This document shows, piece by piece, positions 21,522 to 33,906 of a stretch of DNA of 64,000 bases. Every line of letters begins with the position of its first letter. Within the stretch, counting starts at the first letter, position 1. This stretch comes from a virus (Duplodnaviria > Heunggongvirae > Uroviricota > Caudoviricetes), in the IMG/VR virus record IMGVR_UViG_3300020576_002722, positions 1 through 64,000 of that record; one strand, written 5' to 3'. Below the pieces are notes generated by a model. It saw only the letters and a list, made by a program, of their open reading frames with translations, was not told where the DNA came from and searched no databases. Made by a program: the position numbers and the translations under genes.

Positions 21522-21543
21522 TTACAGCACCATCTATCGCAAC

Positions 21544-22017
21544 ATGAGCGTACGACGCATTGAACAGGTCATGATGCAGGTGTTTTCCTTTGGGGACAAC
21601 ACTGTATCCAAGGTGATCACTGTGATCCTGTCGGCGGCAGCTGGATTCATCGCCCCCATCTGGCCTTTCCTGGCCCTGTCGTTCGTGCTTTCCGGATTCG
21701 ACCTGTACACTGGTTGGCGCAAGAGTAAGAAGCTGACCGGATCATCAGTAACATCCAAGGGGCTCGGAGGAACAGTAGAGAAGATTGTCCTGTACAGTCT
21801 GGCCATCCTGCTGGCCGAGGGCGTGCGAGTGGTGTTCGGCCTGGATGACATTTGGGGTCTCAATAAGATGACCTACGTGGTGGCTGGACTGATCGCGTGG
21901 CGTGAGCTTCTGAGTTGTTTTGAGAACATCTCCATAGTGATAGGTTGGGACCTTGTCGGTGAGTTCAAGGAGGCTATAAGGAATGGCGTGGCATCCATCT
22001 TCAGGAGCAAGTCTTAG
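21544..22017 (+). CDS. Holin (toxin-secretion/phage-lysis holin family-like, 157 aa)
   Basis: Two TM helices followed by FDLYTGWRKSKKLTGSSVTSKGLGGTVEKIV, resembling the conserved core of TIGR01593-type holins. Start refined to the first ATG after the upstream stop. Confidence 0.55.
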   Translation: MSVRRIEQVMMQVFSFGDNTVSKVITVILSAAAGFIAPIWPFLALSFVLSGFDLYTGWRKSKKLTGSSVTSKGLGGTVEKIVLYSLAILLAEGVRVVFGLDDIWGLNKMTYVVAGLIAWRELLSCFENISIVIGWDLVGEFKEAIRNGVASIFRSKS

Positions 22018-22765: not shown

Positions 22766-23770
22766 ATGGCAGGAAAGCAAAGCGTTGCAGGGCAGATCGT
22801 AGAGCAGTATTGCAAGGACTTCCCGAAGATCAACAACGGAAGGCTGGCAAGAAAGATCGCAGAGGAACACCCACAGCTGGGGACCAGTGAGAAGATCCGA
22901 TGGCAGGTAAGGTTCTACCGTCTCCAGGCCGGGAAGACGCACCGCGACACCAGGAAGAAGAACGGTCACGCTCACATGGAGAAGGAGTCCGCTTCGAGCA
23001 ATGTGTACGAGCTTCCTGAGCCACGCATCATTGAGCGGGTCCCGTTCAAGATGCCAAGCTCGATCCGCAAGCTGCTTGTGTTCTCGGACATCCACGTACC
23101 GTACCACGACATGGACGTGGTCAAGCGTGGCATCGAGTTCGGCAAGAGCGAGGGGTGCGATGGGATTCTGCTGAACGGCGACACAATGGATATGTGTGGG
23201 CCATCGTCGCATGATCCGGATCCACGCAGCCTGGACCTTCCGTCCGAGCTGGAGGATGGACGCCAGTTCCTCAGGCACCTGAGGAATAAGTTCCCTAACA
23301 TCCCCATCTACTTCAAGGACGGGAATCACGAGAATAGGCTGGAGCGATATCTGATCAAGCAGGCACCCGTCCTGCTTGGCGTGGATGATTTCGAGCTGCG
23401 CAGCCTGCTCCGCATGGGCGAAGTGGGCATCCAGTGGATCGGCGACAAGCGCCTGTTCCTGGCCGGCAAGCTGGTCATCATACATGGCCACGAGTACAAG
23501 GGCGCGGGTGGTGTCAATCCGGCCAGGTGGCTCTCGCTGCGCACGTCCGGATCGATCATGTGTGGTCACTTCCACCGAAGCTCCTCGCACTTCTCCAAGT
23601 CCATCATGGACGAGATCTCTGGTGCCTGGTCTACCGGATGCATGTGCCACATGAGTCCCGACTACTCACCGTACAACCAGTGGAACCACGGGTTCGCGAT
23701 GGTCCACGTCAACAAGGACAAGACCTTCGAGGTTGAGAACAAGATGATGATCGGTGGCAAGGTACGATGA
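22766..23770 (+). CDS. Calcineurin-like metallophosphoesterase (334 aa)
   Basis: Canonical motifs in order: FSDIHVPYHD, NGDTMD, DGNHENR, IIHGHEY, CGHFH. Confidence 0.8.
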   Translation: MAGKQSVAGQIVEQYCKDFPKINNGRLARKIAEEHPQLGTSEKIRWQVRFYRLQAGKTHRDTRKKNGHAHMEKESASSNVYELPEPRIIERVPFKMPSSIRKLLVFSDIHVPYHDMDVVKRGIEFGKSEGCDGILLNGDTMDMCGPSSHDPDPRSLDLPSELEDGRQFLRHLRNKFPNIPIYFKDGNHENRLERYLIKQAPVLLGVDDFELRSLLRMGEVGIQWIGDKRLFLAGKLVIIHGHEYKGAGGVNPARWLSLRTSGSIMCGHFHRSSSHFSKSIMDEISGAWSTGCMCHMSPDYSPYNQWNHGFAMVHVNKDKTFEVENKMMIGGKVR

Positions 23771-24294
23771 TCGAGAAGCTGCTGGAGATGGCCGTCGAGT
23801 TCGCCGAGAGGCTGACGCCTGTGTACTTCGTCAAGGAGTACCAGCGAGGGGTCATGTTCCGTGGCGGCAGGTTTAAGGGAGAGATCACGCCAGGCACCCA
23901 CTTCAAGTGGCCGATATTCGATGACATCGAAGTGTTCCTGGTGGCCACTACAACGATGGCTCTTCCAGCGCAGAGCGTCACCACCCGTGACGGCCGCAAT
24001 GTAGTGATCAAGTCCAGGATCAAGTACAGGGTAAGCAACGTCAAGGTGTTCGGTGTCGAGGTGGCCGACGCGCTCGATGCACTCAGCGACATGGTGTGCG
24101 GGATCCAGTTCGACCTGATCCGATCGATGACATGGGAGGAGTCGTGCCTGGCCAACCTGGACGAGGTGATCACAGCCGACGCCAAGAAGGAGGCCAAGAA
24201 GTGGGGCATCACCATCGAGAAGGTGACCGTGACCGACTACTCCGAGATGCGATCGATACGCCTGTTCAACGAGGGCGGCAAGGTGACCGACTAA
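23767..24294 (+). CDS. SPFH/band-7 (stomatin/prohibitin-like) domain protein (175 aa)
   Basis: ATGA-coupled to the phosphoesterase. YFVKEYQRGVMFRGGRF...GTHFKWPIFD matches the SPFH fold signature. Confidence 0.7.
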   Translation: MIEKLLEMAVEFAERLTPVYFVKEYQRGVMFRGGRFKGEITPGTHFKWPIFDDIEVFLVATTTMALPAQSVTTRDGRNVVIKSRIKYRVSNVKVFGVEVADALDALSDMVCGIQFDLIRSMTWEESCLANLDEVITADAKKEAKKWGITIEKVTVTDYSEMRSIRLFNEGGKVTD

Positions 24295-24378
24295 CGATTC
24301 GTCACAAAGTACTTGACGTATCAGGAATCTCTCTTACATTTGGGGCGTCATTGTCAATGGGGGTTGGGTTTTGATGGA

Positions 24379-24448
24379 GGCCGTGTAGCTCAGTTGGTAG
24401 AGCAGCCCCGACCGGGGTTGGTCGCAGGTTCGAGTCCTGCCACGGGTT
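24379..24448 (+). tRNA. Aberrant tRNA-like gene (possible pseudo-tRNA)
   Basis: Canonical D-arm (TAGCTCAGTTGGTAGAGC) and T-arm (GCAGGTTCGAGTCCTGC). The anticodon arm is 3 nt short (GCCCC-GACC-GGGGT, a 4-nt loop) and the acceptor has a G-G clash. Confidence 0.3.
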
Positions 24449-24570
24449 CAGGGAGTTCTTTTCTTCATGGTAGCAAAGGCGGGGTGATCACCGCCGAACT
24501 GGTAGTCGGAAGGCCGCAAGCCGGAGACGTTGTACCACATACGGCCTGTTATAGGACTTGGGGCCGTGCC

Positions 24571-24642
24571 GGACGGGTAGCTCAGATGGTAGAGCAGCCG
24601 CCTGAAAAGCGGTGGCCGGTCGTTCGAGTCGACCCCTGTCCA
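24571..24642 (+). tRNA. tRNA-Phe (anticodon GAA)
   Basis: Manual cloverleaf: acceptor GGACGGG/CCTGTCC, D-arm GCTC-AGATGGTA-GAGC, anticodon stem GCCGC/GCGGT with loop CTGAAAA, T-arm GGTCG-TTCGAGT-CGACC. No encoded CCA. Confidence 0.8.
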
Positions 24643-24757
24643 CTATATGGCGGCGTAGCTAACCGCAAAGCTGGCAGATGTTGGGATGAACGCATATACT
24701 CCCGGCCCACGTTCAGAGATGCCACACAGCGCTGCTTTATTGACTCGGGCGCGAAAT

Positions 24758-24829
24758 TGGACAGTAGCACAGCGGTAGTGCAGCTCCCTGTTAAGGAGCA
24801 GGTCGGTGGTTCGATCCCATCCTGTTCAG
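24758..24829 (+). tRNA. tRNA-Asn (anticodon GTT)
   Basis: Acceptor TGGACAG/CTGTTCA, D-arm GCAC-AGCGGTA-GTGC, anticodon stem GCTCC/GGAGC with loop CTGTTAA, T-arm GGTGG-TTCGATC-CCATC. Confidence 0.8.
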
Positions 24830-25069
24830 CAAACAAGCGTGTGCCCTGGCAAGGGTTTTGCTCCACGCCCGAAGTCACACACCCTTCAAGTGTGGCCTAT
24901 GTTTATGGGTGACGCGCCGGAGAGACGGCACCATTAGTAGCCAATGGTCCTGACGGGTAAAGCCGTGGGTAAAGCTACCATCCCGTGGGTGGAAACACGT
25001 GCAATGTGAACCGGCACATGACAGTGTATAAAACAACGGTGACTTGGTGCTTCAGAGAAAGTACCGCCT

Positions 25070-25141
25070 GCGCGGATGGTGTAATTGGTAGCATGTCAGC
25101 CTTCCAAGCTGAGGGTGCGGGTTCAAGTCCCGCTCTGCGCT
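25070..25141 (+). tRNA. tRNA-Gly (anticodon TCC)
   Basis: Acceptor GCGCGGA/TCTGCGC, anticodon stem TCAGC/GCTGA with loop CTTCCAA, T-arm GCGGG-TTCAAGT-CCCGC. Confidence 0.8.
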
Positions 25142-25142
25142 C

Positions 25143-25535
25143 ATGGTGCGAATCGTATCCCATACCAGGATCAAGAAGCTCAGTGGCAAGGGCTACTGGA
25201 TATCGAAGATCTGTGTGCTCGATGAGCGCGGAAACACCGTGTTCGATTGCTACGCCCTGGAGGATGCGGCTGAGTGCCCTCCGGTAGGTACATGGGAGCT
25301 TGTCCTGGAGTACTCGCCCAAGTTCGGCAGGAAGCTGTACGAGATGAAGGGGATACCTGGCAGGGCCGAGATCAAGTACCACGTCGGAAACACCTTGGCC
25401 GACACCGACGGGTGCCCGCTACTCGGAGCCAACTACATCGGCAACACTGTCAATGGATCACGCCTAGCGCTTGATCGATTCATGAGGGCCATGCGTGGCG
25501 TCGACTGCACGACGGTCACCATATCGATCCAATAG
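25143..25535 (+). CDS. Hypothetical protein with H-x-G-N...D-x-G-C motif (130 aa; possible L,D-transpeptidase-fold or cell-wall hydrolase)
   Basis: Starts 2 nt after tRNA-Gly. Has KYHVGNTLADTDGCPLLGANY. Followed by a terminator hairpin. Confidence 0.45.
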   Translation: MVRIVSHTRIKKLSGKGYWISKICVLDERGNTVFDCYALEDAAECPPVGTWELVLEYSPKFGRKLYEMKGIPGRAEIKYHVGNTLADTDGCPLLGANYIGNTVNGSRLALDRFMRAMRGVDCTTVTISIQ

Positions 25536-25571
25536 TCGTACCTTCGCACTCGTGTTCATGTGTGGTCAAGG

Positions 25572-25604
25572 CTCCAGGTCTGAAAGGATCTGGAGTTCTT
25601 GTTT
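25572..25604 (+). terminator. Rho-independent terminator-like hairpin
   Basis: CTCCAG-(12 nt)-CTGGAG followed by TTCTTGTTT. Confidence 0.5.
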
Positions 25605-25637
25605 ATGTGGGCACCAATGCCTATGTTTGACACCCCT

Positions 25638-26354
25638 ATGAGGATCCTGTTCGCTGCCCTGATGCTCGTATCCTTGTTGGTACGCGGGCAATCCACATGC
25701 TCGACGGCAGCTCAGTTCTCGTACGGATGCGAGAACTTCCCACCACTGTATCCGGTTCAGGTGACCAGGTGCTACACCTTCCAGACGGGAGGATCGTCGG
25801 CCTACTACAACTTCTTGGTCACGGCCAACTGCTCCAACGACGTCATCTATTCCTTGTACAACCAAGAGTGCGATGTGCTGATCGACCAGAACATCTCCGG
25901 CGTCTTCAGCCTGATTCCGAATCAGGTGTACGTCGTGTGTGTGGACGTGGCCTGTACCAGCTCGGGCGGTATCAGGGCCATCTGTCCGTACGAGGAGTTC
26001 ACTCTTCCGATCGAGCTGCTCCGCTTCGATGCGCGTGCTGCGCAGGACGGTGTATCGGTGTCGTGGTCCACGGCCACCGAGCAGAACTCCTGGTACTTCA
26101 CCCTGTCCAGGTCCAATGACACGGAGCATTGGAGCCAAGAGGCCCAGATCCAGGCGGCCGGCAACAGCCAGAACACCATCAGGTACCAGTTCGTTGACCA
26201 TGAGCCCGCACTCGGCATCAGCTACTACAAGCTGGAGAGCGTTGACATCGACGGCAGCGCCCGCTTCATCGGCGTGGCCTCGGCCATCATGGTGTCGGGT
26301 GGAATTACATCATCCATTGATCCATACGACCTGATCGGTCGCCAAGTGAAATGA
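25638..26354 (+). CDS. Secreted protein with N-terminal signal peptide and C-terminal beta-rich domain (239 aa from MRILFAAL)
   Basis: Signal peptide MRILFAALMLVSLLVRGQS. Cys-rich mature region. C-terminal ~80 aa (YQFVDHEPALGISYYKLESVDIDGSARFIG...) loosely resembles a Bacteroidota type-IX secretion C-terminal sorting domain. Start set after the terminator. Confidence 0.5.
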   Translation: MRILFAALMLVSLLVRGQSTCSTAAQFSYGCENFPPLYPVQVTRCYTFQTGGSSAYYNFLVTANCSNDVIYSLYNQECDVLIDQNISGVFSLIPNQVYVVCVDVACTSSGGIRAICPYEEFTLPIELLRFDARAAQDGVSVSWSTATEQNSWYFTLSRSNDTEHWSQEAQIQAAGNSQNTIRYQFVDHEPALGISYYKLESVDIDGSARFIGVASAIMVSGGITSSIDPYDLIGRQVK

Positions 26355-26824
26355 AGAACGACCTATTCCCAATGCCCAAGTGGTTCTTTCCGATACTCGT
26401 CACTGCGCTCATTGTGGTGCTGTCCGGGCTTCTCACTTCCTGCTCCCCAGAGAAGAAGCTGAACAGGCTTCTGATGAAGTACCCCGAGCTGCGCACCACC
26501 GACACGATCCATGACACCGTCGAGGCGATCGTGTCGTACGTACACACGGACACCGTATTCAAGCCGACCACGGGTGACACCGTTCGCCTGAGCGATGGCC
26601 GCCTGCGCGTGAAGTACGTGCGGATGCCGGGTGACACCGTATACCTGGCCGGAGAGTGCCTGGCTGACACCGTGCGCGTTCCGGTGGAGACCATCGTCGA
26701 ACGCGTGGCCCCCAAGGAGTTCGTAGACCGGACCCCCTGGTGGATCTGGCTGATCATCGCTGTGCTCGCCGCATTGGTAGCGCTGCCAAGGGTAACACAA
26801 TCGATCGCTATCCTGAGGAAGTGA
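26351..26824 (+). CDS. Lipoprotein with DTV repeats and C-terminal TM helix (157 aa)
   Basis: ATGA overlap with the upstream gene. Lipobox LLTSCS. DTV recurs every 8-10 residues (HDTVEAIV..HTDTVFKP..GDTVRLSD..GDTVYLAG..ADTVRVPV). C-terminal hydrophobic helix. Confidence 0.55.
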   Translation: MKNDLFPMPKWFFPILVTALIVVLSGLLTSCSPEKKLNRLLMKYPELRTTDTIHDTVEAIVSYVHTDTVFKPTTGDTVRLSDGRLRVKYVRMPGDTVYLAGECLADTVRVPVETIVERVAPKEFVDRTPWWIWLIIAVLAALVALPRVTQSIAILRK

Positions 26825-26965
26825 GAGGATACGTAGCGCGGATACAGTACACGGTATCCGAACGGATGGGCGAGTTCCCTCCACTGGACAAACAAGAACC
26901 ATACACATACGAACATGGCAAGACCAAGGCAGGAGGCATCGACATCACAGTCGAGCCGGGAGAAG

Positions 26966-27133
26966 ATGGACAGGAGCATGACGCTCGTGTTCAGGAACGG
27001 AGCGAGGCATGTAGTCCACCCGACCAAGGCGTTCGAGGGTGACTGGAGGGGCCTGGCCGACTACATCGCCGGTGGCGAGCCGTACCAGATCGAGCGCCAA
27101 GTGAAACACGAAACACCTGAACCGAAGCAATGA
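26966..27133 (+). CDS. Small hypothetical protein (55 aa)
   Basis: ATG preceded by GGGAGAAG. Ends 3 nt before the next gene. Confidence 0.35.
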   Translation: MDRSMTLVFRNGARHVVHPTKAFEGDWRGLADYIAGGEPYQIERQVKHETPEPKQ

Positions 27134-27474
27134 GCACACAGATGGAGTTCCCTGGAGAGGGGCAATTCAAGGCCGAAATTCCCAAGGACTTCGACCCCAA
27201 GCAGATGATCGCTGACGCGGTCGATAAGCTGGAGGAGGAGATCCAACTCCCAAGGTCATTCCCAGGGATCCTGATGGTGGACCACAAGTTCACCGATGAC
27301 CCGGCCGTCAAGTACGAGCGTGCTCACGAGAAGAGGCGACTGAAGGCGTACCTCAAGGGACACCAGCGGTTCCAGCACGGGTGGCAGCCGGCCTATCCGA
27401 TCGGCCGCAGGCCCATCATGTTCCCCATGTACGAGGGACCCAAGAACGACAAACCAACACAAGCAAAAGCATGA
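27130..27474 (+). CDS. Hypothetical protein (114 aa)
   Basis: ATGA-coupled on both sides. Confidence 0.5.
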   Translation: MSTQMEFPGEGQFKAEIPKDFDPKQMIADAVDKLEEEIQLPRSFPGILMVDHKFTDDPAVKYERAHEKRRLKAYLKGHQRFQHGWQPAYPIGRRPIMFPMYEGPKNDKPTQAKA

Positions 27475-27692
27475 GAGAGCTGACCATTGGAGAGAAGCGG
27501 GTTCGCATTGAGTTCAACCCGAGCAACCAGGATAATGTCTTCCGGGTGAAGACCAAGATCGCAGAGCTGATCAATGAAGCAGAGGCCATCAAGGCTACGG
27601 TAACTGATCCTGAGGCAAAGCGTCTCGCAGCTCTCGCCTCCACTGATCTTGAGAACGCGGCCATGTGGCTGGTGAAAGCACTTACGGCATGA
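27471..27692 (+). CDS. Small hypothetical protein (73 aa)
   Basis: ATGA overlap at both ends. Start refined from 27381. Confidence 0.45.
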   Translation: MRELTIGEKRVRIEFNPSNQDNVFRVKTKIAELINEAEAIKATVTDPEAKRLAALASTDLENAAMWLVKALTA

Positions 27693-28117
27693 GCAACGGA
27701 AGGATCATCGCCATCGATTTCGATGGCACATGCGTAACGCATGAGTACCCGAAGGTCGGAAAGGACATCGGCGCTGTGCCCGTCCTGAAGGCGCTGGTAG
27801 AGGCTGGACATGCCCTGATCCTGTACACGATGCGATCAGGTCAGACGCTCAATGATGCAGCCGACTGGTTCCGAAGGAACGGGATAGGGCTGACGGCCGT
27901 AAACGTGAACCCGTTCCAGTCTACCTGGTCCAGCTCGCCCAAGGTGTACGCTCAGTTGTACATCGATGACGCAGGGTTCGGGGCACCACTGGTGCTTCCG
28001 GATGGAGAACAGCGTCCGCACATTGATTGGGCGTTGGCTGAGAACTGGCTACGCCTGGCCGGGTACCTTCCCCAAGTCAAGGAAGCCAAGCAAGAAGAAC
28101 AAACCACCGAAGTATGA
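27689..28117 (+). CDS. HAD-superfamily phosphatase-like protein (142 aa)
   Basis: IIAIDFDGTCV carries the DxDGT HAD motif I, as in polynucleotide kinase 3'-phosphatase and deoxynucleotidase domains. Start refined to the ATGA overlap. Confidence 0.5.
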   Translation: MSNGRIIAIDFDGTCVTHEYPKVGKDIGAVPVLKALVEAGHALILYTMRSGQTLNDAADWFRRNGIGLTAVNVNPFQSTWSSSPKVYAQLYIDDAGFGAPLVLPDGEQRPHIDWALAENWLRLAGYLPQVKEAKQEEQTTEV

Positions 28118-30618
28118 TGAAGAAACTGTTACTGATCCTGTCACTGCTGGTCACCTCACTGTGCCCCGCCCAATACCCGGCGCAGACCGCGTCGGTACCC
28201 ATCTCTGCGGTGGCCAACGTGAGTCCCGCCAAGATCACGTTGACGTGGACCGCGTTCTCCGGGACGACCGGGTTCACCCTGTACCGCAAGACCAAGGCGC
28301 AGACCACCTGGACCCAGATCGCTACCCCGGCCAGCAATGCCACTACGTATGAGGACGCCACCGCAGTGGTCGGCACCTATTACGAGTACAAGCTGGTACG
28401 AACGGCGTCGGCCGGTACGGGTTACGGTTACATCGCCGCCGGGATCACGCTTCCTGTGGTCGACAGCCGTGGCAAGATGGTTCTCCTGGTGGCCGACAAC
28501 ATGACCACGCCGTTGGCAACTCCGCTATCGCAGCTTGTCGCTGACCTTCGCGGTGACGGATGGGTGGTACTGAGGCACGACGTCAGCACGAGCGCGTCAC
28601 CAACCACGATCAAGGCCGTGATCCAGTCCGACTACAACGCGGATCCAACGAACGTGAAGGCGGTGTTCATCTTCGGGCACGTCCCGGTACCCTACTCCGG
28701 CAACATCAACCCGGACGGGCACGGCAACCACCAGGGCGCTTGGCCCTGCGACGGCTACTACGGTGACATGGATGGAGTGTGGACCGACAGCACGGTCAAC
28801 AACACGTCGTCCAGCGCTGACGGAACCAGGAACGACAATGTACCGGGTGACGGCAAGTTCGATCAGAGCAGCTACCCGAGCGCACTTGAACTCCAGGTGG
28901 GTCGCGTTGACCTGTACAACATGGAGTCGTTCTCGTTCTACGCTGGACTCAGCGAGACGCAGCTGCTGACCAACTACCTGACCAAGCTGCACAACTTCAA
29001 GATCAAGCAGTTCACTCCGACGTTCAGGGGTGGCGTGTTCGACAACTTCGAGGACGTGTCGCAGCCATTGCTAGCTGGCGGATACCGCAGTGTGTTCTCC
29101 AATGTGGGCCCATCCAATACCACCGACTGGAACGGTAACGGTTCACCGTACAGCTCCTACATCAACGGGCAGAGCTACCTGTGGACGGCGACCGCCGGCG
29201 GTGGACAGTTCACCAGCTCGCAGAACGTGACCAGCACAGGTGAGCTGGCTCAGTCGGTGGTCAACGGTGCCATCTTCAACCAGATGATCGGCAGCTACTT
29301 CGGCGACTGGGACTGCATGAACAACTTCCTCAGGGCACCCTTGTGCAGCGGCAACGGTCTCACCAACTGCTACAACGGGCTCCCGGCCTTCTTCTGGTTA
29401 CACCACATGGGCATGGGCGACAATATCGGGTACGGTACCCTGGTCTCCATGAACAACGTGGCCACTACTGGGACCTATCAGCCACAGGGACCAGCCTACC
29501 AGGGGGTGAGCGCCGGCAATAACCGGGTGAACATGGGCCTCATGGGGGACCCCAGCCTCCGCCAGATCTCCGTGGCACCACCTTCCAACCTGGCCATCAC
29601 CAACTCAGGAGGGTTCGCCTCGTGGTCTTGGACGGCGGCAAGCGGATCACCGCTCGGCTACCACGTATACGACCTGGGTACCGGATCTACTGCACCGGTG
29701 AGGCTTACGACGGATCCAGTGAATGCCACCAGCTGGAGCCCTGGCACCGTCCCTTTCGTCGCGGCCCGTCAGTACATGGTACGAGCGGTCGTCCTCACGA
29801 CCGGGGCCACCGGCACTTACTACAACATGTCCCTGGGGGCACTGGGGACATCGGCATCTACTCCGACCATCCTTGTCAGCCCGCGTGCATTCCTGGAGGG
29901 ACCATACGTCAGCGGCGTAGGCACAATGTCCGACGGGCTCCGCACCCTGTCCACGTTTCCCCTCAGCGATCCATATCCAGCGCTCGGCTACGTACACGTT
30001 GGGACCGGCGCTACTGGAACCATCAACGCTTCGGCTCTCACTGTTACCGGCAACAACGCCATCGTTGACTGGGTTGTCGTTGAGATACGATCCAACGCTT
30101 CCCCGTATGCTGTCGTTGCAAGCAAGAGTGTCCTCGTCCAGCGCGACGGTGACGTTGTGGATCGGGATGGTACCTCGGCGGTATCGTTCCAGGTCGCGGC
30201 GGCTACATATCGGGTTGCGGTGAGGCATCGGAACCACCTGGGTATCATGTCTGGTGCCGGTATCGCGCTCACCACGACGACCACTGCCGTCAACTTCACG
30301 TCGACCAACACATCGATGTATGGAACCAGCCCGCGCAAGCAGATCATTGGATCATTCACCACCTGGGTCATGTACGCCGGCGATGTGAACTTCAACCGCC
30401 AGATCAAGTACGTGGGATCGGCCAACGACAACGACCCGATCCTCGTGGCCGTGGGTGGAACCACACCGAACAACACGATCACCAACACGTACAGCGGTGC
30501 CGACACGAACATGGACGGCCTGATCAAGTACACGGGCAGCCTGAACGATCGCGACATCGTCCTGGTGAACGTTGGCGGAACGACACCGAACGCAGTGCGT
30601 AACGCGCAGTTACCGTAA
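28114..30618 (+). CDS. Large secreted multidomain protein: signal peptide, FN3-like domain, His/Cys-containing central domain, two C-terminal dockerin-like repeats (834 aa)
   Basis: MMKKLLLILSLLVTSLCPAQ signal. FN3-like PAKITLTWTAFSGTTGFTLYRKTK...YEYKLV. GHVPVPYSGNINPDGHGNHQGAWPCDGYYGD. Paired ~40-aa repeats GDVNFNRQIKYVGSANDNDPILVAVGGTTPN and GADTNMDGLIKYTGSLNDRDIVLVNVGGTTPN. Confidence 0.65.
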   Translation: MMKKLLLILSLLVTSLCPAQYPAQTASVPISAVANVSPAKITLTWTAFSGTTGFTLYRKTKAQTTWTQIATPASNATTYEDATAVVGTYYEYKLVRTASAGTGYGYIAAGITLPVVDSRGKMVLLVADNMTTPLATPLSQLVADLRGDGWVVLRHDVSTSASPTTIKAVIQSDYNADPTNVKAVFIFGHVPVPYSGNINPDGHGNHQGAWPCDGYYGDMDGVWTDSTVNNTSSSADGTRNDNVPGDGKFDQSSYPSALELQVGRVDLYNMESFSFYAGLSETQLLTNYLTKLHNFKIKQFTPTFRGGVFDNFEDVSQPLLAGGYRSVFSNVGPSNTTDWNGNGSPYSSYINGQSYLWTATAGGGQFTSSQNVTSTGELAQSVVNGAIFNQMIGSYFGDWDCMNNFLRAPLCSGNGLTNCYNGLPAFFWLHHMGMGDNIGYGTLVSMNNVATTGTYQPQGPAYQGVSAGNNRVNMGLMGDPSLRQISVAPPSNLAITNSGGFASWSWTAASGSPLGYHVYDLGTGSTAPVRLTTDPVNATSWSPGTVPFVAARQYMVRAVVLTTGATGTYYNMSLGALGTSASTPTILVSPRAFLEGPYVSGVGTMSDGLRTLSTFPLSDPYPALGYVHVGTGATGTINASALTVTGNNAIVDWVVVEIRSNASPYAVVASKSVLVQRDGDVVDRDGTSAVSFQVAAATYRVAVRHRNHLGIMSGAGIALTTTTTAVNFTSTNTSMYGTSPRKQIIGSFTTWVMYAGDVNFNRQIKYVGSANDNDPILVAVGGTTPNNTITNTYSGADTNMDGLIKYTGSLNDRDIVLVNVGGTTPNAVRNAQLP

Positions 30619-30643
30619 CCAGATAGGAGGCCGGTCAATGAAA

Positions 30644-30682
30644 GGGGCTAAGGAGGTTGCACTCCGAGGCCCCTTTCGATTT
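30644..30682 (+). terminator. Rho-independent terminator
   Basis: GGGGC-(20 nt)-GCCCC followed by TTTCGATTT, directly after the 834-aa gene. Confidence 0.6.
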
Positions 30683-30709
30683 ACCTGGAATACGTATCTT
30701 TGATTCCAA

Positions 30710-31105
30710 ATGGATATCAACTGTACTAAGTGTGGTTCCCTGATCAGGGCCGACAACAGAAGGTCAAAGAGTCGCTGGTGCAAGGAGTGTCACAAGGAGT
30801 ACGACAGAGCCAGGTATGCGCAGAACGCAGACTCAAGAAAGGCAGCGATCAAGGCACAACGCATATCTGTTCAAGAGTTTGTAGACGAGATCAAGAGAAC
30901 GTCTCCATGCACTGACTGCGGGGGATATTTTCATCCGGCCGTAATGGAATACGATCATCTGCCAGGAAGCAAGAAGACGGAGACTCCGTCAAACCTTGCC
31001 AGGACAGGAAGGAAGAACAGGTTCATTGAAGAGATCAAGGGGTGCGAACTGGTGTGCGCAAACTGCCACAGGATGAGGACCGTTCTACGCAGGAGGAAGC
31101 GCTAG
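30710..31105 (+). CDS. HNH endonuclease (131 aa)
   Basis: CxxC...CxxC zinc knuckles (CTKCG, CKEC, CTDCG). HNH core EYDHLPGSKK...CANCHRMRT. Sits in a low-GC island. Confidence 0.7.
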   Translation: MDINCTKCGSLIRADNRRSKSRWCKECHKEYDRARYAQNADSRKAAIKAQRISVQEFVDEIKRTSPCTDCGGYFHPAVMEYDHLPGSKKTETPSNLARTGRKNRFIEEIKGCELVCANCHRMRTVLRRRKR

Positions 31106-31581
31106 AGCTTCAGTCCGGCCAGGTCGAAGATACCGATGCACTCCAGTAGCATCTGGTGCCCTCTGGTAGTGAGCGAGCAGTCGGACACGTCGCCGTTGTG
31201 CTCGATGAATCCTTCGCGATCGAGCATGGCCAGGATCGTATCCAGGTGGCCGGATGGGAACATCCTTCGGAGCACGCCGTCCCACTTGATCCAGTGACAG
31301 AACCCCTGCTGGGGGTCGTCGCGCTCGTCGATGATGTAGAGGGCTGACGCGATGTGCGACAGGACTACCATAGAGGAGTCGCCGGCCGCCATACCCATCA
31401 GCCTGATCATGGCCAGCGGCTCATTGATGAACTGGTCAGACTCGTTGCCGTACAGCTCGATCTGTTCAGACAAGGTCCACAGGTCCGGATAGAGCGGATG
31501 CGGGATGATCAGCGGCTGCGACTCGATCTCTATGATGTTGAGCTGGTCCTCAAGCAGGGATACGGTATCTGACATGGCCAT
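31102..31581 (-). CDS. Hypothetical protein (159 aa)
   Basis: First gene of the long minus-strand block. ORF only. Confidence 0.45.
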   Translation of the reverse strand: MAMSDTVSLLEDQLNIIEIESQPLIIPHPLYPDLWTLSEQIELYGNESDQFINEPLAMIRLMGMAAGDSSMVVLSHIASALYIIDERDDPQQGFCHWIKWDGVLRRMFPSGHLDTILAMLDREGFIEHNGDVSDCSLTTRGHQMLLECIGIFDLAGLKL

Positions 31582-31606
31582 CTATTCGATACAGCTAAGG
31601 TACGGA

Positions 31607-31990
31607 TCAGCGCCCGGATCGAGGGTAGAAGACCCCTTTCATGTAGTCGTTCACGTCTGTCATGAACTCCTCTAGGGAGCGGCATTCATAGACTATCCAT
31701 CCAGCCTCTGAGAACCTGATCTGCATCTCTTTCTGTGACTCGGATAGCTTGCCTTTGTCAGACTTCATCTCGATGGCCATGCCGCAGACGTGCGTATCTC
31801 CATACGTCCTGGGATGGCACACCAGGATATCAGGGACTCCGGCCAGTACCCCCATGTCCTTCCACAATTTCCCCATGTGTGGACTCCCGGCATCTCTGCC
31901 ATTGGGAGGGTGGAACGCCAGGACGTTAGGGTACTGTAACCGGAGCCACTTGATACACGCCTTCTGGAGCGCTTGTTCTGGACGCTTCAT
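31607..31990 (-). CDS. VRR-NUC domain nuclease (127 aa)
   Basis: Start refined to MKRPEQALQK (ATGA overlap with the RNA ligase stop). AIEMKSDKGKLSESQKEM and VLAGVPDILVCHP fit the PD-(D/E)xK VRR-NUC fold. Confidence 0.6.
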   Translation of the reverse strand: MKRPEQALQKACIKWLRLQYPNVLAFHPPNGRDAGSPHMGKLWKDMGVLAGVPDILVCHPRTYGDTHVCGMAIEMKSDKGKLSESQKEMQIRFSEAGWIVYECRSLEEFMTDVNDYMKGVFYPRSGR

Positions 31991-33063
31991 TCCTCGTACT
32001 TGAGAAGGAACTGAGGATTGATCGCCTTGAACGATATGCGTCCACGGGTCACCGTCTTGCCGGTGATGAAGGTCTCGGTCATCTCTTCCAGGCTGCGCAC
32101 CACGATCCCCTCGGCCCATACGTCGGGGTTGATGGCGCTCTTGCGGGTGGCGAAACCAACCAGCTCGTCAACACTGAGGGCACCAAGGGTGAGGCAGTCG
32201 ATGTACGGGACCATCTTCAGGTCCATCGATCCGAATGCGACTGCGGCATCGCTAGGCAGGTACGGCTTGCCGGCATCGATGTCGAACACGTTGAAGAAGA
32301 GAACCTTGCGGCCGGTCAGCTTGTACTTGTTGCCCTGGATCCCTTCGCCGATCAGCTCGCCCTGGATGGCGATGTTCTTGCCGTAGTCGCGGAGCTTCTG
32401 CTCGACGTTCATCTCTCGGGCGTACTGCCAGAACGCATTCCTTTCGTCCTCCTTCAGCTCCAGGTTGCGCGAGCAGACCCCGAACTCCCCGTTGTACAGG
32501 TAGAAGGTAGCGCTGCTGCCGTCCATCTTCTCGCGGATCTCCACCTGCGCTGCGGCGTACTTGTCCAGGATGCCTGGCATGTTCTGGATCCGCTCCTCGT
32601 CCGTCTTGTGGATGAAGGATGGGAAGTAGCCGCGCACGGTACCGCCCAGGCAGGCCGGGATGGCGGGCTCGTACTTGATGATGCCGAGCAGCTCTGTCAC
32701 ATCGTACCCTTCTGCTGACAAGCCCAAGGCTGCGAACAGCTCGTGCTCGGCCGTGATAACATCGGCAAGGATCGACACCGGCATCATCAGGCCCTGGGAT
32801 ACCTGTCCCTTGAGTTTGATGGTGCGCACACGCATGTGGCGTGGCTTCATGAACTCGAACTCTGGTCGGTCAGGAAGGATGCTGTCCGGCTCTATGAATA
32901 CGATCGAATCGCCAATTCTGTGTCCGGCATCGTTCCTGATCACGCACTTCCACCCCAATACGCTGGCTACGGACACTTCGTCGGCTCCGGGTATTGGCTG
33001 GATGTCAGAGATCGTCTGTATGCTTGCAAGTTTTCTGCTCATGATTTTGTGTTTGAGAGCCAT
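31987..33063 (-). CDS. ATP-dependent RNA ligase, DraRnl/Rnl5-like (358 aa)
   Basis: N-terminal MSRKLASIQTISDIQPIPGADEVSVASVLGWKCVI OB-like module and KMDGSSATFY nucleotidyltransferase motif I (KxDG). Confidence 0.65.
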   Translation of the reverse strand: MALKHKIMSRKLASIQTISDIQPIPGADEVSVASVLGWKCVIRNDAGHRIGDSIVFIEPDSILPDRPEFEFMKPRHMRVRTIKLKGQVSQGLMMPVSILADVITAEHELFAALGLSAEGYDVTELLGIIKYEPAIPACLGGTVRGYFPSFIHKTDEERIQNMPGILDKYAAAQVEIREKMDGSSATFYLYNGEFGVCSRNLELKEDERNAFWQYAREMNVEQKLRDYGKNIAIQGELIGEGIQGNKYKLTGRKVLFFNVFDIDAGKPYLPSDAAVAFGSMDLKMVPYIDCLTLGALSVDELVGFATRKSAINPDVWAEGIVVRSLEEMTETFITGKTVTRGRISFKAINPQFLLKYEE

Positions 33064-33458
33064 TCGATCGCTGATCGTAGGCGGTTAACGTCATCTTTCA
33101 AGTGGCCTATTCCCTTATTACAGGCAGAGCACAGGAGTCCCCTGACCCTACCGGTCTTGTGGTCGTGATCTACTGTCACTGTATCCATTGCTTGACCCTT
33201 GGTCTTTGTGGGCATCTTCATCTTGCACTTGCATATACCACACTCTCCGCGAAACGCCATCCACATGGCGTCAAACTCGCCCGGATCAAGCCCATACTTC
33301 TTGCTCAGGTGCCAGTTCCTGCGATATATGGATATGTCTGCATGTATGCGTCTATGCGATCCATTGCATTTGTAACAACGGACTGACTTATTTCCAGCCG
33401 TACCGGTTCCGCAGTCAATGCAGTGGCCTCTGATCCTACGCGTCTTGACTAACTCCAT
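33039..33458 (-). CDS. Endonuclease VII-like Holliday-junction resolvase (139 aa)
   Basis: GECGICKCKM...VTVDHDHKTGRVRGLLCSACNKGIGH matches the T4 endonuclease VII family signature. Low-GC island. Confidence 0.75.
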   Translation of the reverse strand: MELVKTRRIRGHCIDCGTGTAGNKSVRCYKCNGSHRRIHADISIYRRNWHLSKKYGLDPGEFDAMWMAFRGECGICKCKMKMPTKTKGQAMDTVTVDHDHKTGRVRGLLCSACNKGIGHLKDDVNRLRSAIEWLSNTKS

Positions 33459-33906
33459 TTGCTTCGTTGCGTAATGTATCCCTTCTCATGAACATGATGA
33501 TCCACGACTCCTGATCACCGTGCTTGCCAGATTCAAGATCCTCCCGGTTATTGTCATGCCAAGACTGGTGACAATGGCCGCAAACGATGCGGATATTCCG
33601 AGGATCCGTCTTGTAGTTCCTATACGTTCCCCTCTCAAGGAGGTGGGAGAAGTTGATCGGCTGCGGTGGATCGGATATTGGAATGCCGCATACCTCACAG
33701 CAGTGTTCCCGTAGGCCAAGATCATCACCGGTCTCCCAGATCTCCAGGGCTGCTTTCCACCAGCCCTTGTTTGATGGTGCCCTCTTCCGAAGTGGCTTCC
33801 TCTTGCTCTCCAGCTTCGACGCCTTCGTCACCAGGCCCCTCTTCATCATCTCCGTCAACGATGGCTTGGTGAACGGCTTCCTTGCGAGCTGCTTTTTCCT
33901 GAGCAT
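33436..33906 (-). CDS. HNH endonuclease (up to 156 aa; true start uncertain)
   Basis: CCEVCG...IVCGHCHQSWH HNH core. The N-terminal ~60 aa overlap the upstream gene out of frame. Confidence 0.55.
   Translation of the reverse strand: MLRKKQLARKPFTKPSLTEMMKRGLVTKASKLESKRKPLRKRAPSNKGWWKAALEIWETGDDLGLREHCCEVCGIPISDPPQPINFSHLLERGTYRNYKTDPRNIRIVCGHCHQSWHDNNREDLESGKHGDQESWIIMFMRRDTLRNEANGVSQDA

What the first reader, a model, noticed from the sequence alone, without database searches (positions are those of the whole stretch)
25638..30618. Eight-gene coupled operon of secreted, lipoprotein and phosphatase-like products just downstream of the tRNA cluster
The genes are linked by ATGA overlaps. They encode a signal-peptide protein with a sorting-domain-like C-terminus, a DTV-repeat lipoprotein, four small proteins, a HAD (DxDGT) phosphatase-like protein, and an 834-aa secreted protein. 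The 834-aa protein has an FN3-like domain, a His/Cys-rich central domain and two dockerin-like repeats. The signal peptides and lipoboxes are Bacteroidota-style. Such a block could be a host-interaction or superinfection-exclusion (moron) cassette, or cell-envelope-acting lysis accessories.
Basis: partly seen in the sequence, partly recalled or inferred. Interest (0 to 1): 0.55.

Follow-up and report, generated by a model that had tools for sequence, protein, structure and literature searches.

The report
Mosaic accessory gene block in Flavobacteriales phage
This stretch of a phage that infects Flavobacteriales is a patchwork, not one machine: two exported proteins copied from host surface-protein parts, a likely lysis lipoprotein, and a small strain-variable insert with a probable immune-signal sponge next to a phosphatase.

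Summary
The block is real, but it has seven supported genes, not eight. Five of the six junctions are ATGA overlaps. It sits in a large phage, probably of a high-GC uncultured Flavobacteriales host.

- **g1 and g7** carry Bacteroidota-style signal peptides with Gln at +1.
- **g1** carries the domain that normally precedes a T9SS sorting domain, followed by only a 23-residue stub. g1 and g7 homologues co-occur in two otherwise unrelated phage lineages.
- **g2** has unimolecular-spanin architecture (lipobox plus C-terminal transmembrane helix). It lies beside a DUF5675 lysin-like gene, 4.3 kb from a holin.
- **g5 and g6** are an Acb2/Vs.4-family hairpin protein and a BT0820-type HAD phosphatase. 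They form a 638-bp indel, present in 7 near-identical contigs and absent from at least 11.

Verdict: a mosaic accessory region, new in its details and ordinary in kind. Every function is inferred.

The parts
25570..25597 (+). Terminator-like hairpin (12-bp stem followed by a T-rich tail) between the DUF5675 gene and g1. Likely the upstream boundary of the transcription unit.
   Evidence: This is a consensus scan only; the total count of such sites in the region is not above shuffled controls.
25638..26354 (+). g1, 238 aa. Signal peptide (cleavage VRG|Q), a Cys-rich beta-sandwich-like N-domain, an FN3-like 'pre-CTD' domain (about aa 120-215) and a 23-aa stub that resembles the first part of a T9SS sorting domain.
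   Evidence: Homologues lie near g7 homologues in the phage loci L002/L008 and L006/L007.
26351..26824 (+). g2, 157 aa. Lipoprotein signal (lipobox LTSC, Cys31), a V/T-rich periplasmic domain with DT[VI] repeats, and a C-terminal TM helix (aa 127-155) followed by a basic tail. This is unimolecular-spanin-like architecture.
   Evidence: Purifying selection: 65 substitutions, split 12/7/46 by codon position. No homologue in 50,697 phage records.
26915..27133 (+). g3, 72 aa. Small cytoplasmic protein with no detectable family.
   Evidence: Called in all relatives. Invariant among relatives.
27130..27474 (+). g4, 114 aa. Small cytoplasmic protein with no detectable family. Its last codons form the left junction of the g5-g6 indel.
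27460..28097 (.). 638-bp strain-variable indel carrying g5 and g6. It is flanked by an imperfect direct repeat (AAGAACGACAAACCA / AAGAAGAACAAACCA).
   Evidence: Absent, with identical breakpoints, from 11 near-identical contigs with readable junctions. Present in 7 contigs; 4 places were shown, L021-L024.
27471..27692 (+). g5, 73 aa. Acb2/Tad1-hairpin family protein, a probable sponge for cyclic-nucleotide immune signals.
   Evidence: PF24729 E = 1.3e-9, 38.5 bits against a cut-off of 27. The family profile hits T4 Vs.4 (7UQ2) at E = 0.0048. AF2 pLDDT 94 with two long antiparallel helices. Foldseek against the PDB was uninformative.
27689..28117 (+). g6, 142 aa. HAD-superfamily phosphatase of the BT0820 type (DFDGT motif I, DD motif IV).
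   Evidence: PDB 2OBB E = 8e-17. NF046079 E = 8.7e-24, which is below the equivalog cut-off. phrog_1238 E = 2.8e-28. 56-61% identical to Ackermannviridae proteins.
28114..30618 (+). g7, 834 aa. Signal peptide (aa 1-19, CPA|Q), FN3 (aa 27-113), gingipain/C25-fold domain (aa 114-485), second FN3-like domain (aa 486-584), then a beta-sandwich and two Ca-loop-like repeats (aa 585-834).
29197..29295 (+). The stretch of g7 that aligns with the gingipain catalytic dyad. G362-G364 align where RgpB has His211. S394 aligns where RgpB has Cys244.
   Evidence: hhalign of A1 against RgpB. Column counts: G362 in 60/62, G364 in 62/62, S394 in 62/62, and no His or conserved Cys. The RgpB sequence was checked against PDB 4IEF/1CVR.
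30349..30615 (+). g7 C-terminal repeats (DVNFNRQIKYVGSANDNDPIL / DTNMDGLIKYTGSLNDRDIVL). This is the most variable part of g7 among near-identical phages.
   Evidence: 15 of 89 residues vary here, against 0 of 372 in the C25-like core. No Pfam hit; dockerin 3UL4 at E = 0.95 only.
30641..30676 (+). Strong hairpin (AAAGGGGC...GCCCCTTT) followed by CGATTT, just after the g7 stop codon. Likely terminator.
   Evidence: RNAfold of 30619-30715 gives -41 kcal/mol. Conserved in relatives.
25143..25535 (+). Context: DUF5675 protein (YkuD / C82-like, H...GC motif), a candidate endolysin immediately upstream.
   Evidence: PF18925 E = 5.5e-18. Called C82-like lysin domain in bioRxiv 10.64898/2026.04.11.717860. 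Homologues in crAss-like phages are annotated L,D-carboxypeptidase/transpeptidase, and homologues occur in 6-7-kb microviruses.
21544..22017 (+). Context: holin of the Phage_holin_4_1 family, 4.3 kb upstream of g2 on the same strand.
   Evidence: PF05105 E = 4.6e-6, 27.1 bits against a cut-off of 22.2.

Best explanation
The block is the distal, accessory end of the rightward late/lysis transcription region of a large phage. The host is probably a high-GC, uncultured Flavobacteriales lineage. The block is a mosaic of three functionally separate parts.

**(1) g1 and g7: exported, probably non-enzymatic envelope proteins.**
- Both are exported through Sec and cut by signal peptidase I, leaving an N-terminal Gln.
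- Both are built from host surface-protein (type IX secretion cargo) modules, but both lack a complete T9SS sorting domain. g1 keeps only a stub. g7 carries a different C-terminal beta-sandwich plus Ca-loop module.
- g7 has the gingipain fold, but the catalytic His/Cys are replaced by Gly/Ser.
- I infer that the two proteins act by binding rather than cleaving, in the periplasm or on the outer membrane of the infected cell.
- The most likely role is envelope remodelling, receptor masking or superinfection exclusion.

**(2) g2: a unimolecular-spanin-like lipoprotein.** It would be tethered to the outer membrane by its lipid and to the inner membrane by its C-terminal helix. It would complete lysis together with the upstream holin and the DUF5675 wall enzyme.

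**(3) g5 and g6: a mobile 638-bp insert.** g5 is an Acb2/Vs.4-type sponge that would sequester cyclic-nucleotide immune signals (CBASS or Thoeris type). g6 is an active-looking HAD phosphatase of unknown substrate.

**Shown versus inferred.** Shown: gene structure, family and fold assignments, loss of the catalytic dyad, the indel polymorphism, and g1-g7 co-occurrence. Inferred: export, cellular location and every function.
For: **Phage identity.** HNH, RNA ligase, DnaB, VRR-NUC, a metallophosphoesterase and tRNAs.

**Host.** The closest g7 relatives are in Flavobacteriales MAGs with 58-63% GC; the window has 57.6%.

**Export.**
- Signal-peptide heuristics for g1, g2 and g7.
- Gln at +1 is invariant in 20/20 g1-family members, and the N-domain has 8 conserved Cys.
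- The Q-rule is specific to Bacteroidota SPI substrates (PMC5837995).

**g7.**
- Dyad positions: Gly in 60-62 of 62 sequences, Ser in 62 of 62.
- 66-67% identity over residues 1-585 to chromosomal proteins. The closest chromosomal relatives continue into thrombospondin-like repeats. Other family members carry Ig/PKD domains and a Por_Secre_tail sorting domain.
- Purifying selection: 19/17/72 substitutions by codon position.

**g1.**
- Its second domain lies directly before Por_Secre_tail in 6 of 6 large proteins checked.
- Two family members extend into a full CTD-like tail.

**g1-g7 link.** In L002/L008 (47% GC) and L006/L007 (31% GC), these are the only genes shared with the window.

**g2.**
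- Lipobox plus C-terminal TM helix, which matches the u-spanin definition (PMC6139136).
- Substitutions in the TM helix are hydrophobic-for-hydrophobic.
- A DUF5675 lysin-like gene and a holin lie nearby.

**g5 and g6.**
- PF24729 above its cut-off; T4 Vs.4 at E = 0.0048; helical hairpin in AF2.
- Indel with identical breakpoints, present in 7 contigs and absent from 11 or more.
- In another phage the same family sits as a lone insert between the tail chaperone genes and the tape-measure gene.
Against: - No dedicated signal-peptide or lipoprotein predictor could be run.
- There is no expression, localisation or activity data.
- The dyad assignment rests on a weak sequence alignment (hhalign E = 0.06) plus strand positions in the model, not on a 3D superposition. 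An alternative catalytic centre is not excluded: Ser394 with the invariant His203, or with the near-invariant His189 or His430.
- g2 has one conserved periplasmic Cys, whereas none of the 58 catalogued u-spanins has one. g2 is also separated from the holin by an HNH gene, two other genes and a tRNA cluster, and a terminator-like hairpin lies between DUF5675 and g1.
- The Foldseek search with the g5 model did not retrieve Acb2 structures.
- g5 at 73 aa is shorter than characterised Acb2 proteins: T4 Vs.4 is 89 aa, and others are about 94 aa from memory.
- The g5-g6 pairing is not seen in sequenced phage isolates.
- The g1-g7 co-occurrence rests on only two independent extra lineages. One 7-kb contig with a g1 homologue shows no g7 homologue.
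- The g7-type architecture with the same C-terminal module also occurs on large cellular contigs, so the module is not phage-specific.
Confidence: 0.55

Rival explanations
1. One coupled, co-functional host-interaction or superinfection-exclusion cassette, in which all the genes work together.
For: Same strand and five ATGA overlaps. Terminator-like hairpins on both sides.
Against: g5 and g6 are dispensable: they are absent from 11 or more near-identical genomes. g2 with its downstream spacer, and both ends of g7, are separate recombinant patches. Only g1 and g7 travel together in other phage lineages. Four of the seven products have no export signal.
Confidence: 0.08
2. g7 is an active secreted hydrolase that uses a non-canonical centre (for example the invariant Ser394 with His203, His189 or His430). 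It would degrade a host envelope or capsule component to help lysis, progeny release or receptor destruction.
For: Gingipain fold and PF01364 match. Ser394 and His203 are invariant, and His189 and His430 nearly so. In L002 the neighbouring secreted gene is a pectate-lyase-like beta-helix protein with the same C-terminal module, and some homologues are fused to such a helix.
Against: No clan CD peptidase is known to work without the His/Cys dyad (my own knowledge). The general-base position is Gly in 60 of 62 sequences. No catalytic geometry could be examined.
Confidence: 0.15
3. g2 is not a spanin but a superinfection-exclusion or immunity lipoprotein of the Llp/Cor/Imm type that blocks a receptor or DNA entry.
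For: A lipobox lipoprotein in an accessory region. It has a conserved periplasmic Cys, unlike the 58 catalogued u-spanins. A terminator-like hairpin separates it from the lysin-like gene. It is a divergent recombinant patch, as expected for a gene in an arms race.
Against: Known exclusion lipoproteins of this type lack a C-terminal membrane anchor (my own knowledge). The lipobox-plus-C-terminal-TMD topology is what defines u-spanins. No other spanin candidate was found in the window next to the holin.
Confidence: 0.3
4. g1 and g7 are virion proteins (adhesin, fibre or decoration) and their N-terminal hydrophobic segments are not export signals.
For: FN3 and Ig-like domains are common on phage fibres and capsids. 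There is a weak phrog_4971 'major tail protein' match at E = 0.004 over the FN3 domain, and FN3-level matches to tail proteins in BFVD. Large structural genes lie upstream.
Against: The signal peptides, with Gln at +1, are conserved in all phage and cellular homologues. g1 has eight conserved Cys. g7 is 66-67% identical to chromosomal secreted proteins. No BFVD protein shares the C25-like fold; TM-scores are about 0.1. The genes lie beyond the holin and the tRNA cluster, outside the structural module.
Confidence: 0.05

Closest known systems
Gingipains RgpB/Kgp and the T9SS sortase PorU (peptidase family C25, clan CD) of Porphyromonas gingivalis
   Different: The catalytic His211 and Cys244 positions are Gly362 and Ser394 in all or nearly all of the 62 family members. 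g7 has no prodomain and no T9SS C-terminal sorting domain. It has an N-terminal FN3 domain and a different C-terminal module. It is encoded by a phage.
Uncharacterised FN3 + C25-like + TSP3/Ig + T9SS-CTD proteins of uncultured Flavobacteriales. This family has more than 5,000 members and often several copies per genome.
   Same: Up to 66-67% identity over g7 residues 1-585, with the same signal peptide, FN3 and C25-like core.
   Different: The closest chromosomal copies continue into thrombospondin-type repeats, and many family members end in a Por_Secre_tail sorting domain. g7 and about 30 full-length relatives, on both phage and cellular contigs, end instead in a 250-aa beta-sandwich plus two-repeat module finishing in QLP.
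Unimolecular spanin gp11 of phage T1 (Kongari et al. 2018, PMC6139136)
   Same: [quoted passage not shown] It is of similar size, has a V/T-rich periplasmic domain that is probably beta-rich, and lies near holin and lysin-like genes.
   Different: No sequence similarity. One conserved periplasmic Cys. It is not contiguous with the holin. The host is Bacteroidota, a phylum I do not recall among hosts of phages with described u-spanins (not checked here). Function is untested.
Acb2 (PaMx33) and Vs.4 (T4) anti-CBASS sponges; the Tad1 hairpin domain
   Same: g5 matches Pfam PF24729 above its cut-off. The g5 family profile finds T4 Vs.4. The predicted core is two long antiparallel helices, as described for Acb2 protomers (PMC12393519). 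Like other members, it sits as a small insert in a phage late region.
   Different: g5 is shorter: 73 aa, against 89 aa for T4 Vs.4 and about 94 aa for others from memory. It lacks the roughly 30-residue segment between the helices that Vs.4 has. Oligomeric state, pocket residues and ligand are unknown. The Foldseek search did not retrieve Acb2.
BT0820 (PDB 2OBB) HAD phosphatase family / phrog_1238, annotated 'phosphoheptose isomerase' in many phage genomes
   Same: g6 aligns over residues 2-99 of 142, with HAD motifs I and IV intact. It is widespread in phages of many phyla: 277 records.
   Different: It scores below NCBIfam's equivalog cut-off (84 bits against 165). No substrate is known for the family. 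Here it forms a two-gene indel with an Acb2-like gene, a pairing not seen in the isolate collection.
Q-rule signal-peptide proteins of unknown function in Porphyromonas gingivalis prophages (PMC10367356)
   Same: These are also phage-encoded proteins with Bacteroidota-type SPI signal peptides that expose Gln at +1, proposed to modify the host envelope.
   Different: No sequence relationship was tested. The present proteins have identifiable domains (C25 fold, pre-CTD domain) and a clear origin in host genes.

Membership tests
Peptidase C25 / clan CD (gingipain-like), for g7 | Caspase-haemoglobinase-type alpha/beta fold with two subdomains and a following Ig-like domain | tested here: met
Peptidase C25 / clan CD (gingipain-like), for g7 | Sequence match to Pfam PF01364 above the gathering score | tested here: met
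   33.1 bits against a cut-off of 23 (E = 4.9e-8) when residues 110-490 are scanned alone. The best stretch covers profile positions 35-130 only. There was no hit with the full-length protein.
Peptidase C25 / clan CD (gingipain-like), for g7 | Catalytic His-Cys dyad (RgpB His211 and Cys244) | tested here: not met
   hhalign places His211 opposite G362 and Cys244 opposite S394/Y395. G362 occurs in 60/62 sequences, G364 in 62/62 and S394 in 62/62. This rests on alignment and strand ends, not on a 3D superposition.
T9SS cargo (type A C-terminal sorting domain), for g1 and g7 | C-terminal Por_Secre_tail (PF18962 / TIGR04183) domain of about 75 aa | tested here: not met
   No Pfam or NCBIfam hit for g1 or g7. 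hhalign of the g1 family against a CTD profile gives 1.9% probability. Only 23 residues follow the last g1 domain.
T9SS cargo (type A C-terminal sorting domain), for g1 and g7 | Sec signal peptide and the domain types found in cargo proteins | tested here: met
   The g1 domain at aa 120-215 lies directly upstream of PF18962 in 6 of 6 large proteins checked. Many g7 homologues carry PF18962.
Unimolecular spanin (T1 gp11 type), for g2 | N-terminal outer-membrane lipoprotein signal with a lipobox | tested here: met
   LTSC with Cys31, h-region KD 3.4, by regex and hydropathy only. Conserved in all variants.
Unimolecular spanin (T1 gp11 type), for g2 | C-terminal transmembrane domain | tested here: met
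   Residues 127-155, KD 2.1, followed by the basic tail ILRK. Variants differ only by hydrophobic substitutions.
Unimolecular spanin (T1 gp11 type), for g2 | Periplasmic domain mainly beta-strand and without Cys (as in all 58 catalogued members) | tested here: inconclusive
   Valine 15% and threonine 13% suggest beta-strand, but no structure prediction was run. One conserved periplasmic Cys is present, unlike the catalogued set.
Unimolecular spanin (T1 gp11 type), for g2 | Last gene of a lysis cassette; complements an Rz/Rz1 defect | not testable with these tools
   Context only: the DUF5675 lysin-like gene is 0.8 kb upstream and the holin 4.3 kb upstream.
Acb2/Tad1 sponge family, for g5 | Match to the Acb2_Tad1_hairpin profile (PF24729) above the gathering score | tested here: met
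   38.5 bits against a cut-off of 27, E = 1.3e-9. 28 of the 29 proteins found as homologues (including an exact copy of g5) carry the same precomputed Pfam hit.
Acb2/Tad1 sponge family, for g5 | Similarity to a solved Acb2-family structure | tested here: inconclusive
   Profile A2 against the PDB: T4 Vs.4 (7UQ2) is the best hit at E = 0.0048. Foldseek with the AF2 model returns only generic helical hairpins, all with E > 1.
Acb2/Tad1 sponge family, for g5 | Homo-oligomer (hexamer) with nucleotide pockets that binds cyclic oligonucleotides | not tested
   No multimer prediction or binding assay was possible.
HAD phosphatase, BT0820 family, for g6 | HAD motif I DxDxT and motif IV acidic pair | tested here: met
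   IAIDFDGTCV and YIDDAG align with 2OBB.
HAD phosphatase, BT0820 family, for g6 | NCBIfam NF046079 equivalog cut-off | tested here: not met
   84.4 bits against a cut-off of 165 (E = 8.7e-24). g6 is a relative, not an equivalog.
Dockerin type I, for the g7 C-terminal repeats | Match to a dockerin profile or structure | tested here: not met
   No Pfam hit in any of the 14 domain copies scanned or in g7 residues 585-834. The profile against the PDB gives dockerin 3UL4 at E = 0.95.

The most novel reading that the evidence does not exclude
g1 and g7 may form a mobile phage module of sorting-domain-less mimics of host type IX secretion cargo. In other lineages the module also includes a roughly 205-aa secreted partner. 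Exported by Sec but unable to leave through the T9SS, these proteins would occupy or misdirect the T9SS or its surface-attachment machinery, or replace the host paralogues that serve as receptors. That would be a previously undescribed way for phages of Bacteroidota to shut down surface display and exclude superinfecting phages. A smaller variant of the idea is that the Acb2-like sponge and the HAD phosphatase act as a two-step unit that captures and then dephosphorylates immune signals.
Probability: 0.12. Interest if true: 0.75.

Novelty: new variant of a known kind. Interest (0 to 1): 0.45.

Why it matters
Phages of environmental Bacteroidota are poorly understood, and little is known about how they handle the host envelope and the type IX secretion system.

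- **Testable candidates for envelope manipulation.** The phage carries a near-copy (up to 67% identity) of an abundant but uncharacterised Flavobacteriales surface-protein family. The copy has a gingipain fold without the catalytic dyad and without the sorting domain. It travels with a second truncated cargo-like protein across phage lineages from 31% to 58% GC.
- **A natural experiment on counter-defence.** The presence/absence polymorphism of the Acb2-like + HAD insert among 96-99% identical genomes could show the cost and benefit of a counter-defence gene in activated-sludge communities.
- **A possible first.** If g2 is a spanin, I know of no earlier unimolecular spanin from a Bacteroidota phage. 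I did not check the catalogue for this.

None of this changes a general principle. The region fits the familiar picture of phage morons and mosaicism.

Tried and rejected
**Searches that found nothing or were uninformative.**
- Megablast of 20000-34000, and tblastn of g7, g2 and g4, against 50,697 phage records: no match.
- g1 against the same collection: only domain-level hits in four megaphage records.
- phmmer and profile searches of g7 against PDB sequences: only FN3 hits. The gingipain relation is visible only by fold and by Pfam on the isolated domain.
- Foldseek of the g5 model against the PDB: uninformative for a 73-aa hairpin.
- Foldseek of g7 against BFVD: only FN3-level hits, TM-score about 0.1.
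- The g7 C-terminal 250 aa: no Pfam, NCBIfam or significant PDB match.
- Literature on BT0820/2OBB: nothing relevant.

**Tool failures.**
- Protein comparison (A1 against RgpB) failed; I replaced it with hhalign in a script.
The g1-g7 co-occurrence could therefore not be counted systematically.

**Ideas rejected.**
- T9SS sorting domain in g1: rejected.
- An eighth gene at 26821-27042: not supported.
- An apparent larger deletion in L013 is a run of N in a scaffold, not a deletion.
- I first thought the HNH gene at 30710-31105 was missing from relatives. It is present at 99% identity but was not called there.
- g5-g6 adjacency in other phages: not seen. The organism lists of the two searches do not overlap, and P0125 contexts have the Acb2-like gene alone.

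Full report
**What the window is.** The 64-kb window belongs to a large tailed phage. It encodes an HNH endonuclease, an RNA ligase, a DnaB-type helicase, a VRR-NUC nuclease, a metallophosphoesterase and five tRNAs. Very large ORFs on the + strand (up to 2,753 aa) precede the region of interest. GC content is 57.6%. Nothing in 50,697 GenBank phage records resembles the region at the DNA level.

**Gene structure.** Seven ORFs fill 25638-30618 on the + strand:
- g1 25638-26354
- g2 26351-26824
- g3 26915-27133
- g4 27130-27474
- g5 27471-27692
- g6 27689-28117
- g7 28114-30618

Five junctions are ATGA overlaps. g2 and g3 are separated by a 90-bp spacer. Independent gene calls on more than 20 closely related metagenomic contigs give the same genes. 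A 12-bp-stem hairpin with a T-rich tail lies at 25570-25597. A strong hairpin followed by CGATTT lies at 30641-30676. Together they suggest a discrete transcription unit, but this is inference from consensus patterns.

**Export signals.** SignalP and LipoP were not available, so I used hydropathy and pattern rules.
- g1 (MRILFAALMLVSLLVRG|QS) and g7 (MMKKLLLILSLLVTSLCPA|QY) have classic n- and h-regions. Their cleavage sites expose Gln, which is the Bacteroidota-specific 'Q-rule' for signal peptidase I substrates (PMC5837995).
- The +1 Gln is invariant in 20 of 20 g1-family proteins. The g1 N-domain has eight conserved cysteines, as expected for an extracytoplasmic protein.
- At least 41 of 62 g7-family proteins have Gln at the aligned position.
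- g2 has lipobox LTSC (Cys31) and a second hydrophobic segment at residues 127-155, followed by a basic tail.
- g3 to g6 have no export signal.

**g7.**
- *Distribution.* The 834-aa protein has more than 5,000 homologues, mostly on large cellular contigs of uncultured Flavobacteriales.
- *Catalytic dyad.* I verified my copy of the RgpB sequence against PDB 4IEF/1CVR and aligned it to the family profile. The alignment runs from residue 114 to 498 and ends in the shared GDPSL motif. RgpB His211 falls on G362 in the motif GGG. Cys244 falls on the motif GSYFGDWD. Both sites sit at the C-terminal ends of predicted strands 355-362 and 386-393, as the fold requires. Across 62 phage and cellular members, G362 is Gly in 60, G364 in 62 and S394 is Ser in 62. 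No His or conserved Cys occurs there. The family has the gingipain fold without the canonical dyad. The alignment is weak by sequence (E = 0.06) and I could not superpose coordinates, so I hold this at about 75-80%.
- *Flanking domains.* The N-terminal FN3 domain is confirmed, and a second FN3-like domain follows the core.
- *C-terminal module.* The last 250 residues are a beta-sandwich followed by two repeats (D-x-N-x-D-G...Y-x-G-x-x-N-D-x-D-x-x-L), ending in QLP. They match no Pfam or NCBIfam model. Their best PDB match is a type I dockerin at a non-significant E = 0.95. 'Dockerin-like' therefore remains a resemblance only.

**Origin of g7.** Residues 1-585 are 66-67% identical to chromosomal proteins of Flavobacteriales MAGs from activated sludge, whose loci have 58-63% GC. 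In the closest of those proteins the core is followed by thrombospondin-type repeats. Other family members carry Ig/PKD domains and a Por_Secre_tail T9SS sorting domain. The phage protein, and about 30 full-length relatives on phage and cellular contigs, carry the other C-terminal module instead. The same module ends a neighbouring secreted beta-helix protein in phage contig L002/L008 and in cellular arrays. No protein in the BFVD viral structure set shares the C25-like fold.

**g1.**
- *Homologues.* Word-indexed search found only identical copies. An exhaustive HMMER search found 59,833 cluster representatives at E <= 0.001.
- *Two classes of hit.* A few dozen are full-length g1-like proteins of about 240-250 aa at 30-42% identity. 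The rest share only residues ~120-215, an FN3-like domain.
- *Position of the shared domain.* In 6 of 6 large proteins examined, this domain lies immediately before a Por_Secre_tail sorting domain.
- *The tail.* In g1 only 23 residues follow, ending in a conserved Y-[DN]-x-[LI]-G-[RQ]-x-[VI]-K motif. In two family members the sequence continues into a full CTD-like tail.
- *Sorting-domain test.* Pfam, NCBIfam and an hhalign test against a CTD profile all fail to recognise a sorting domain in g1.
The defining domain is absent.

**The g1-g7 link.** Homologues of both genes lie within 2-7 kb of each other in two other viral lineages: L002/L003/L008 (47% GC, 132-kb contig) and L006/L007 (31% GC, 256-kb UViG). 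They are the only genes those loci share with the window. In cellular loci no g1 homologue lies within 3 kb of g7 homologues. Other g1 homologues sit in phage-like contexts, once 1.1 kb from a holin of the same family. In three lineages the g1 homologue is directly preceded by a ~205-aa secreted protein that the window lacks. I could not do a systematic count.

**g2 and the lysis context.**
- *Architecture.* g2 combines a lipoprotein signal with a C-terminal transmembrane helix. That topology defines unimolecular spanins such as T1 gp11 (PMC6139136).
- *Selection.* Among near-identical phages g2 has 65 substitutions, split 12/7/46 by codon position, so it is a gene under purifying selection. 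The amino-acid changes are concentrated in the TM helix and are hydrophobic-for-hydrophobic.
- *Neighbours.* A Phage_holin_4_1 holin lies at 21544-22017. The gene just upstream of g1 is a DUF5675 protein with an H...GC motif. A 2026 preprint groups DUF5675 with C82 (YkuD-like) peptidases as a lysin domain. Homologues are annotated L,D-carboxypeptidase/transpeptidase in crAss-like phages and occur in 6-7-kb microviruses.
- *Against a spanin.* g2 has one conserved periplasmic Cys, whereas none of the 58 catalogued u-spanins has one. It is separated from the holin by an HNH gene, two other genes and the tRNA cluster. The hairpin at 25570 also intervenes.
- *Estimate.* I put the spanin reading at about 0.45 and an exclusion/immunity lipoprotein at about 0.3.

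**g5 and g6.**
- *g5.* It matches Pfam Acb2_Tad1_hairpin above the cut-off. A profile of 29 family members finds T4 Vs.4 (7UQ2) as the best PDB hit at E = 0.0048. The AF2 model (pLDDT 94) has the two long antiparallel helices described for Acb2 protomers. Foldseek could not discriminate such a small hairpin. Homologues occur in 146 Flavobacterium phage records. In other phages the gene is a lone insert between the tail chaperone genes and the tape-measure gene.
- *g6.* It is a HAD phosphatase with motifs I and IV intact. It is related to B. thetaiotaomicron BT0820 (2OBB, E = 8e-17) and to phrog_1238, and it is 56-61% identical to proteins of Ackermannviridae. No substrate is known for the family.
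- *The indel.* Window 27460-28097, which holds both genes, is missing from 11 contigs that are 96-99.9% identical on either side, always with the same junction. It is present in seven contigs. An imperfect 15-bp direct repeat flanks it. The C-terminus of g4 in cassette-less genomes (...TTEVR) matches the C-terminus of g6 (...TTEV). The direction of the event, insertion or deletion, cannot be decided.

**g3 and g4.** These have no detectable relatives outside the lineage and no export signals. Their function is unknown.

**Mosaicism.** Divergence among near-identical phages is patchy:

| Segment | Variation among near-identical phages |
|---|---|
| g2 | 13.7% of nucleotides |
| g2-g3 spacer | 22% of nucleotides |
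| g7 signal peptide and first FN3 | 7-21% of nucleotides |
| g7 last 125 residues (Ca-loop repeats) | 17% of amino acids |
| g1, g3, g4 | almost zero |
| g7 C25-like core | 0 of 1,116 nucleotides |

This is the signature of recombination patches. The variable g7 C-terminal module is the part most likely to contact a variable partner.

**Synthesis.** The block is best read as an accessory mosaic at the end of the late/lysis region. It is not a single system.
- *Firm points.* The gene structure, the family and fold assignments, the indel polymorphism, and the host-gene origin of g7 and of the second g1 domain.
- *Likely points.* Sec export of g1, g2 and g7; loss of the catalytic dyad in g7; and membership of g5 in the Acb2 sponge family.
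- *Inferred points.* g1 and g7 act non-catalytically in the periplasm or outer membrane, with envelope remodelling or exclusion my preferred mechanism at about 0.35. g2 is a spanin. g5 blocks CBASS- or Thoeris-type signalling.

**Novelty.** Each component has a known category: moron, spanin, sponge, HAD enzyme. The new elements are the following:
- a phage-borne gingipain-fold protein without the dyad and without a sorting domain;
- its travelling partner g1;
- the natural presence/absence polymorphism of the Acb2-like + HAD insert.

I rate it a new variant of a known kind, of moderate interest.

Noticed in passing
window 60746-61986 (- strand): A Macro-domain protein (60746-61204, PF01661 E = 9e-12) and a NAPRTase-family protein (61201-61986, PF04095 E = 2e-29) with overlapping stop and start. 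This may be an NAD+ salvage / ADP-ribose-processing counter-defence pair.
   Followed up: no
window 22766-25142 and 31987-33063: A metallophosphoesterase (phrog_221), an SPFH/Band-7 protein joined to it by an ATGA overlap, a cluster of four tRNAs (one with an odd anticodon loop) and an RNA ligase (phrog_968) on the other strand. This could be a tRNA repair or replacement set.
   Followed up: no
window 24470-25142 compared with L004 1725-3228: The tRNA cluster differs between near-identical phages. Relative L004 carries about 1.4 kb of extra sequence there, with further tRNA-like stretches and an HNH-type ORF.
   Followed up: partly
window 53063-54026 (+ strand): Two small membrane proteins (61 and 75 aa) and a 126-aa protein with a signal peptide exposing Gln at +1 (SCA|QRL). 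This is another exported phage product, or possibly a second membrane-acting cluster. No family hits.
   Followed up: partly
window 26825-26914: The 90-bp g2-g3 spacer is the most divergent stretch among near-identical phages (20 substitutions). Two small hairpins persist in both variants, one of them with paired changes (GGGC...TCCC against GGAC...GTCC).
   Followed up: partly
L002 6619-7245, L110 121-744, L113 33-647: A conserved ~205-aa secreted protein (Q-rule signal peptide) directly precedes the g1 homologue in three other phage lineages (25-47% GC) but is absent from the window.
   Followed up: partly
L002 12457-15600 and protein P0048: A secreted pectate-lyase-like beta-helix protein carries the same 250-aa C-terminal module as g7. 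In some homologues the beta-helix and the g7-like protein are fused into one 1,450-aa protein.
   Followed up: partly
window 22001-22543 (- strand) and 30710-31105 (+ strand): Two HNH-type endonuclease genes bracket the region. One has AP2 and HNH_3 domains and lies between the holin and the metallophosphoesterase. The other lies just after g7. The second is also present at 99% identity in relatives although it was not called there.
   Followed up: partly
window 5820-14081 (+ strand): A 2,753-aa ORF with no PHROG match, followed by an 1,159-aa ORF with only a weak match. These are unusually large, uncharacterised, presumably structural proteins.
   Followed up: no
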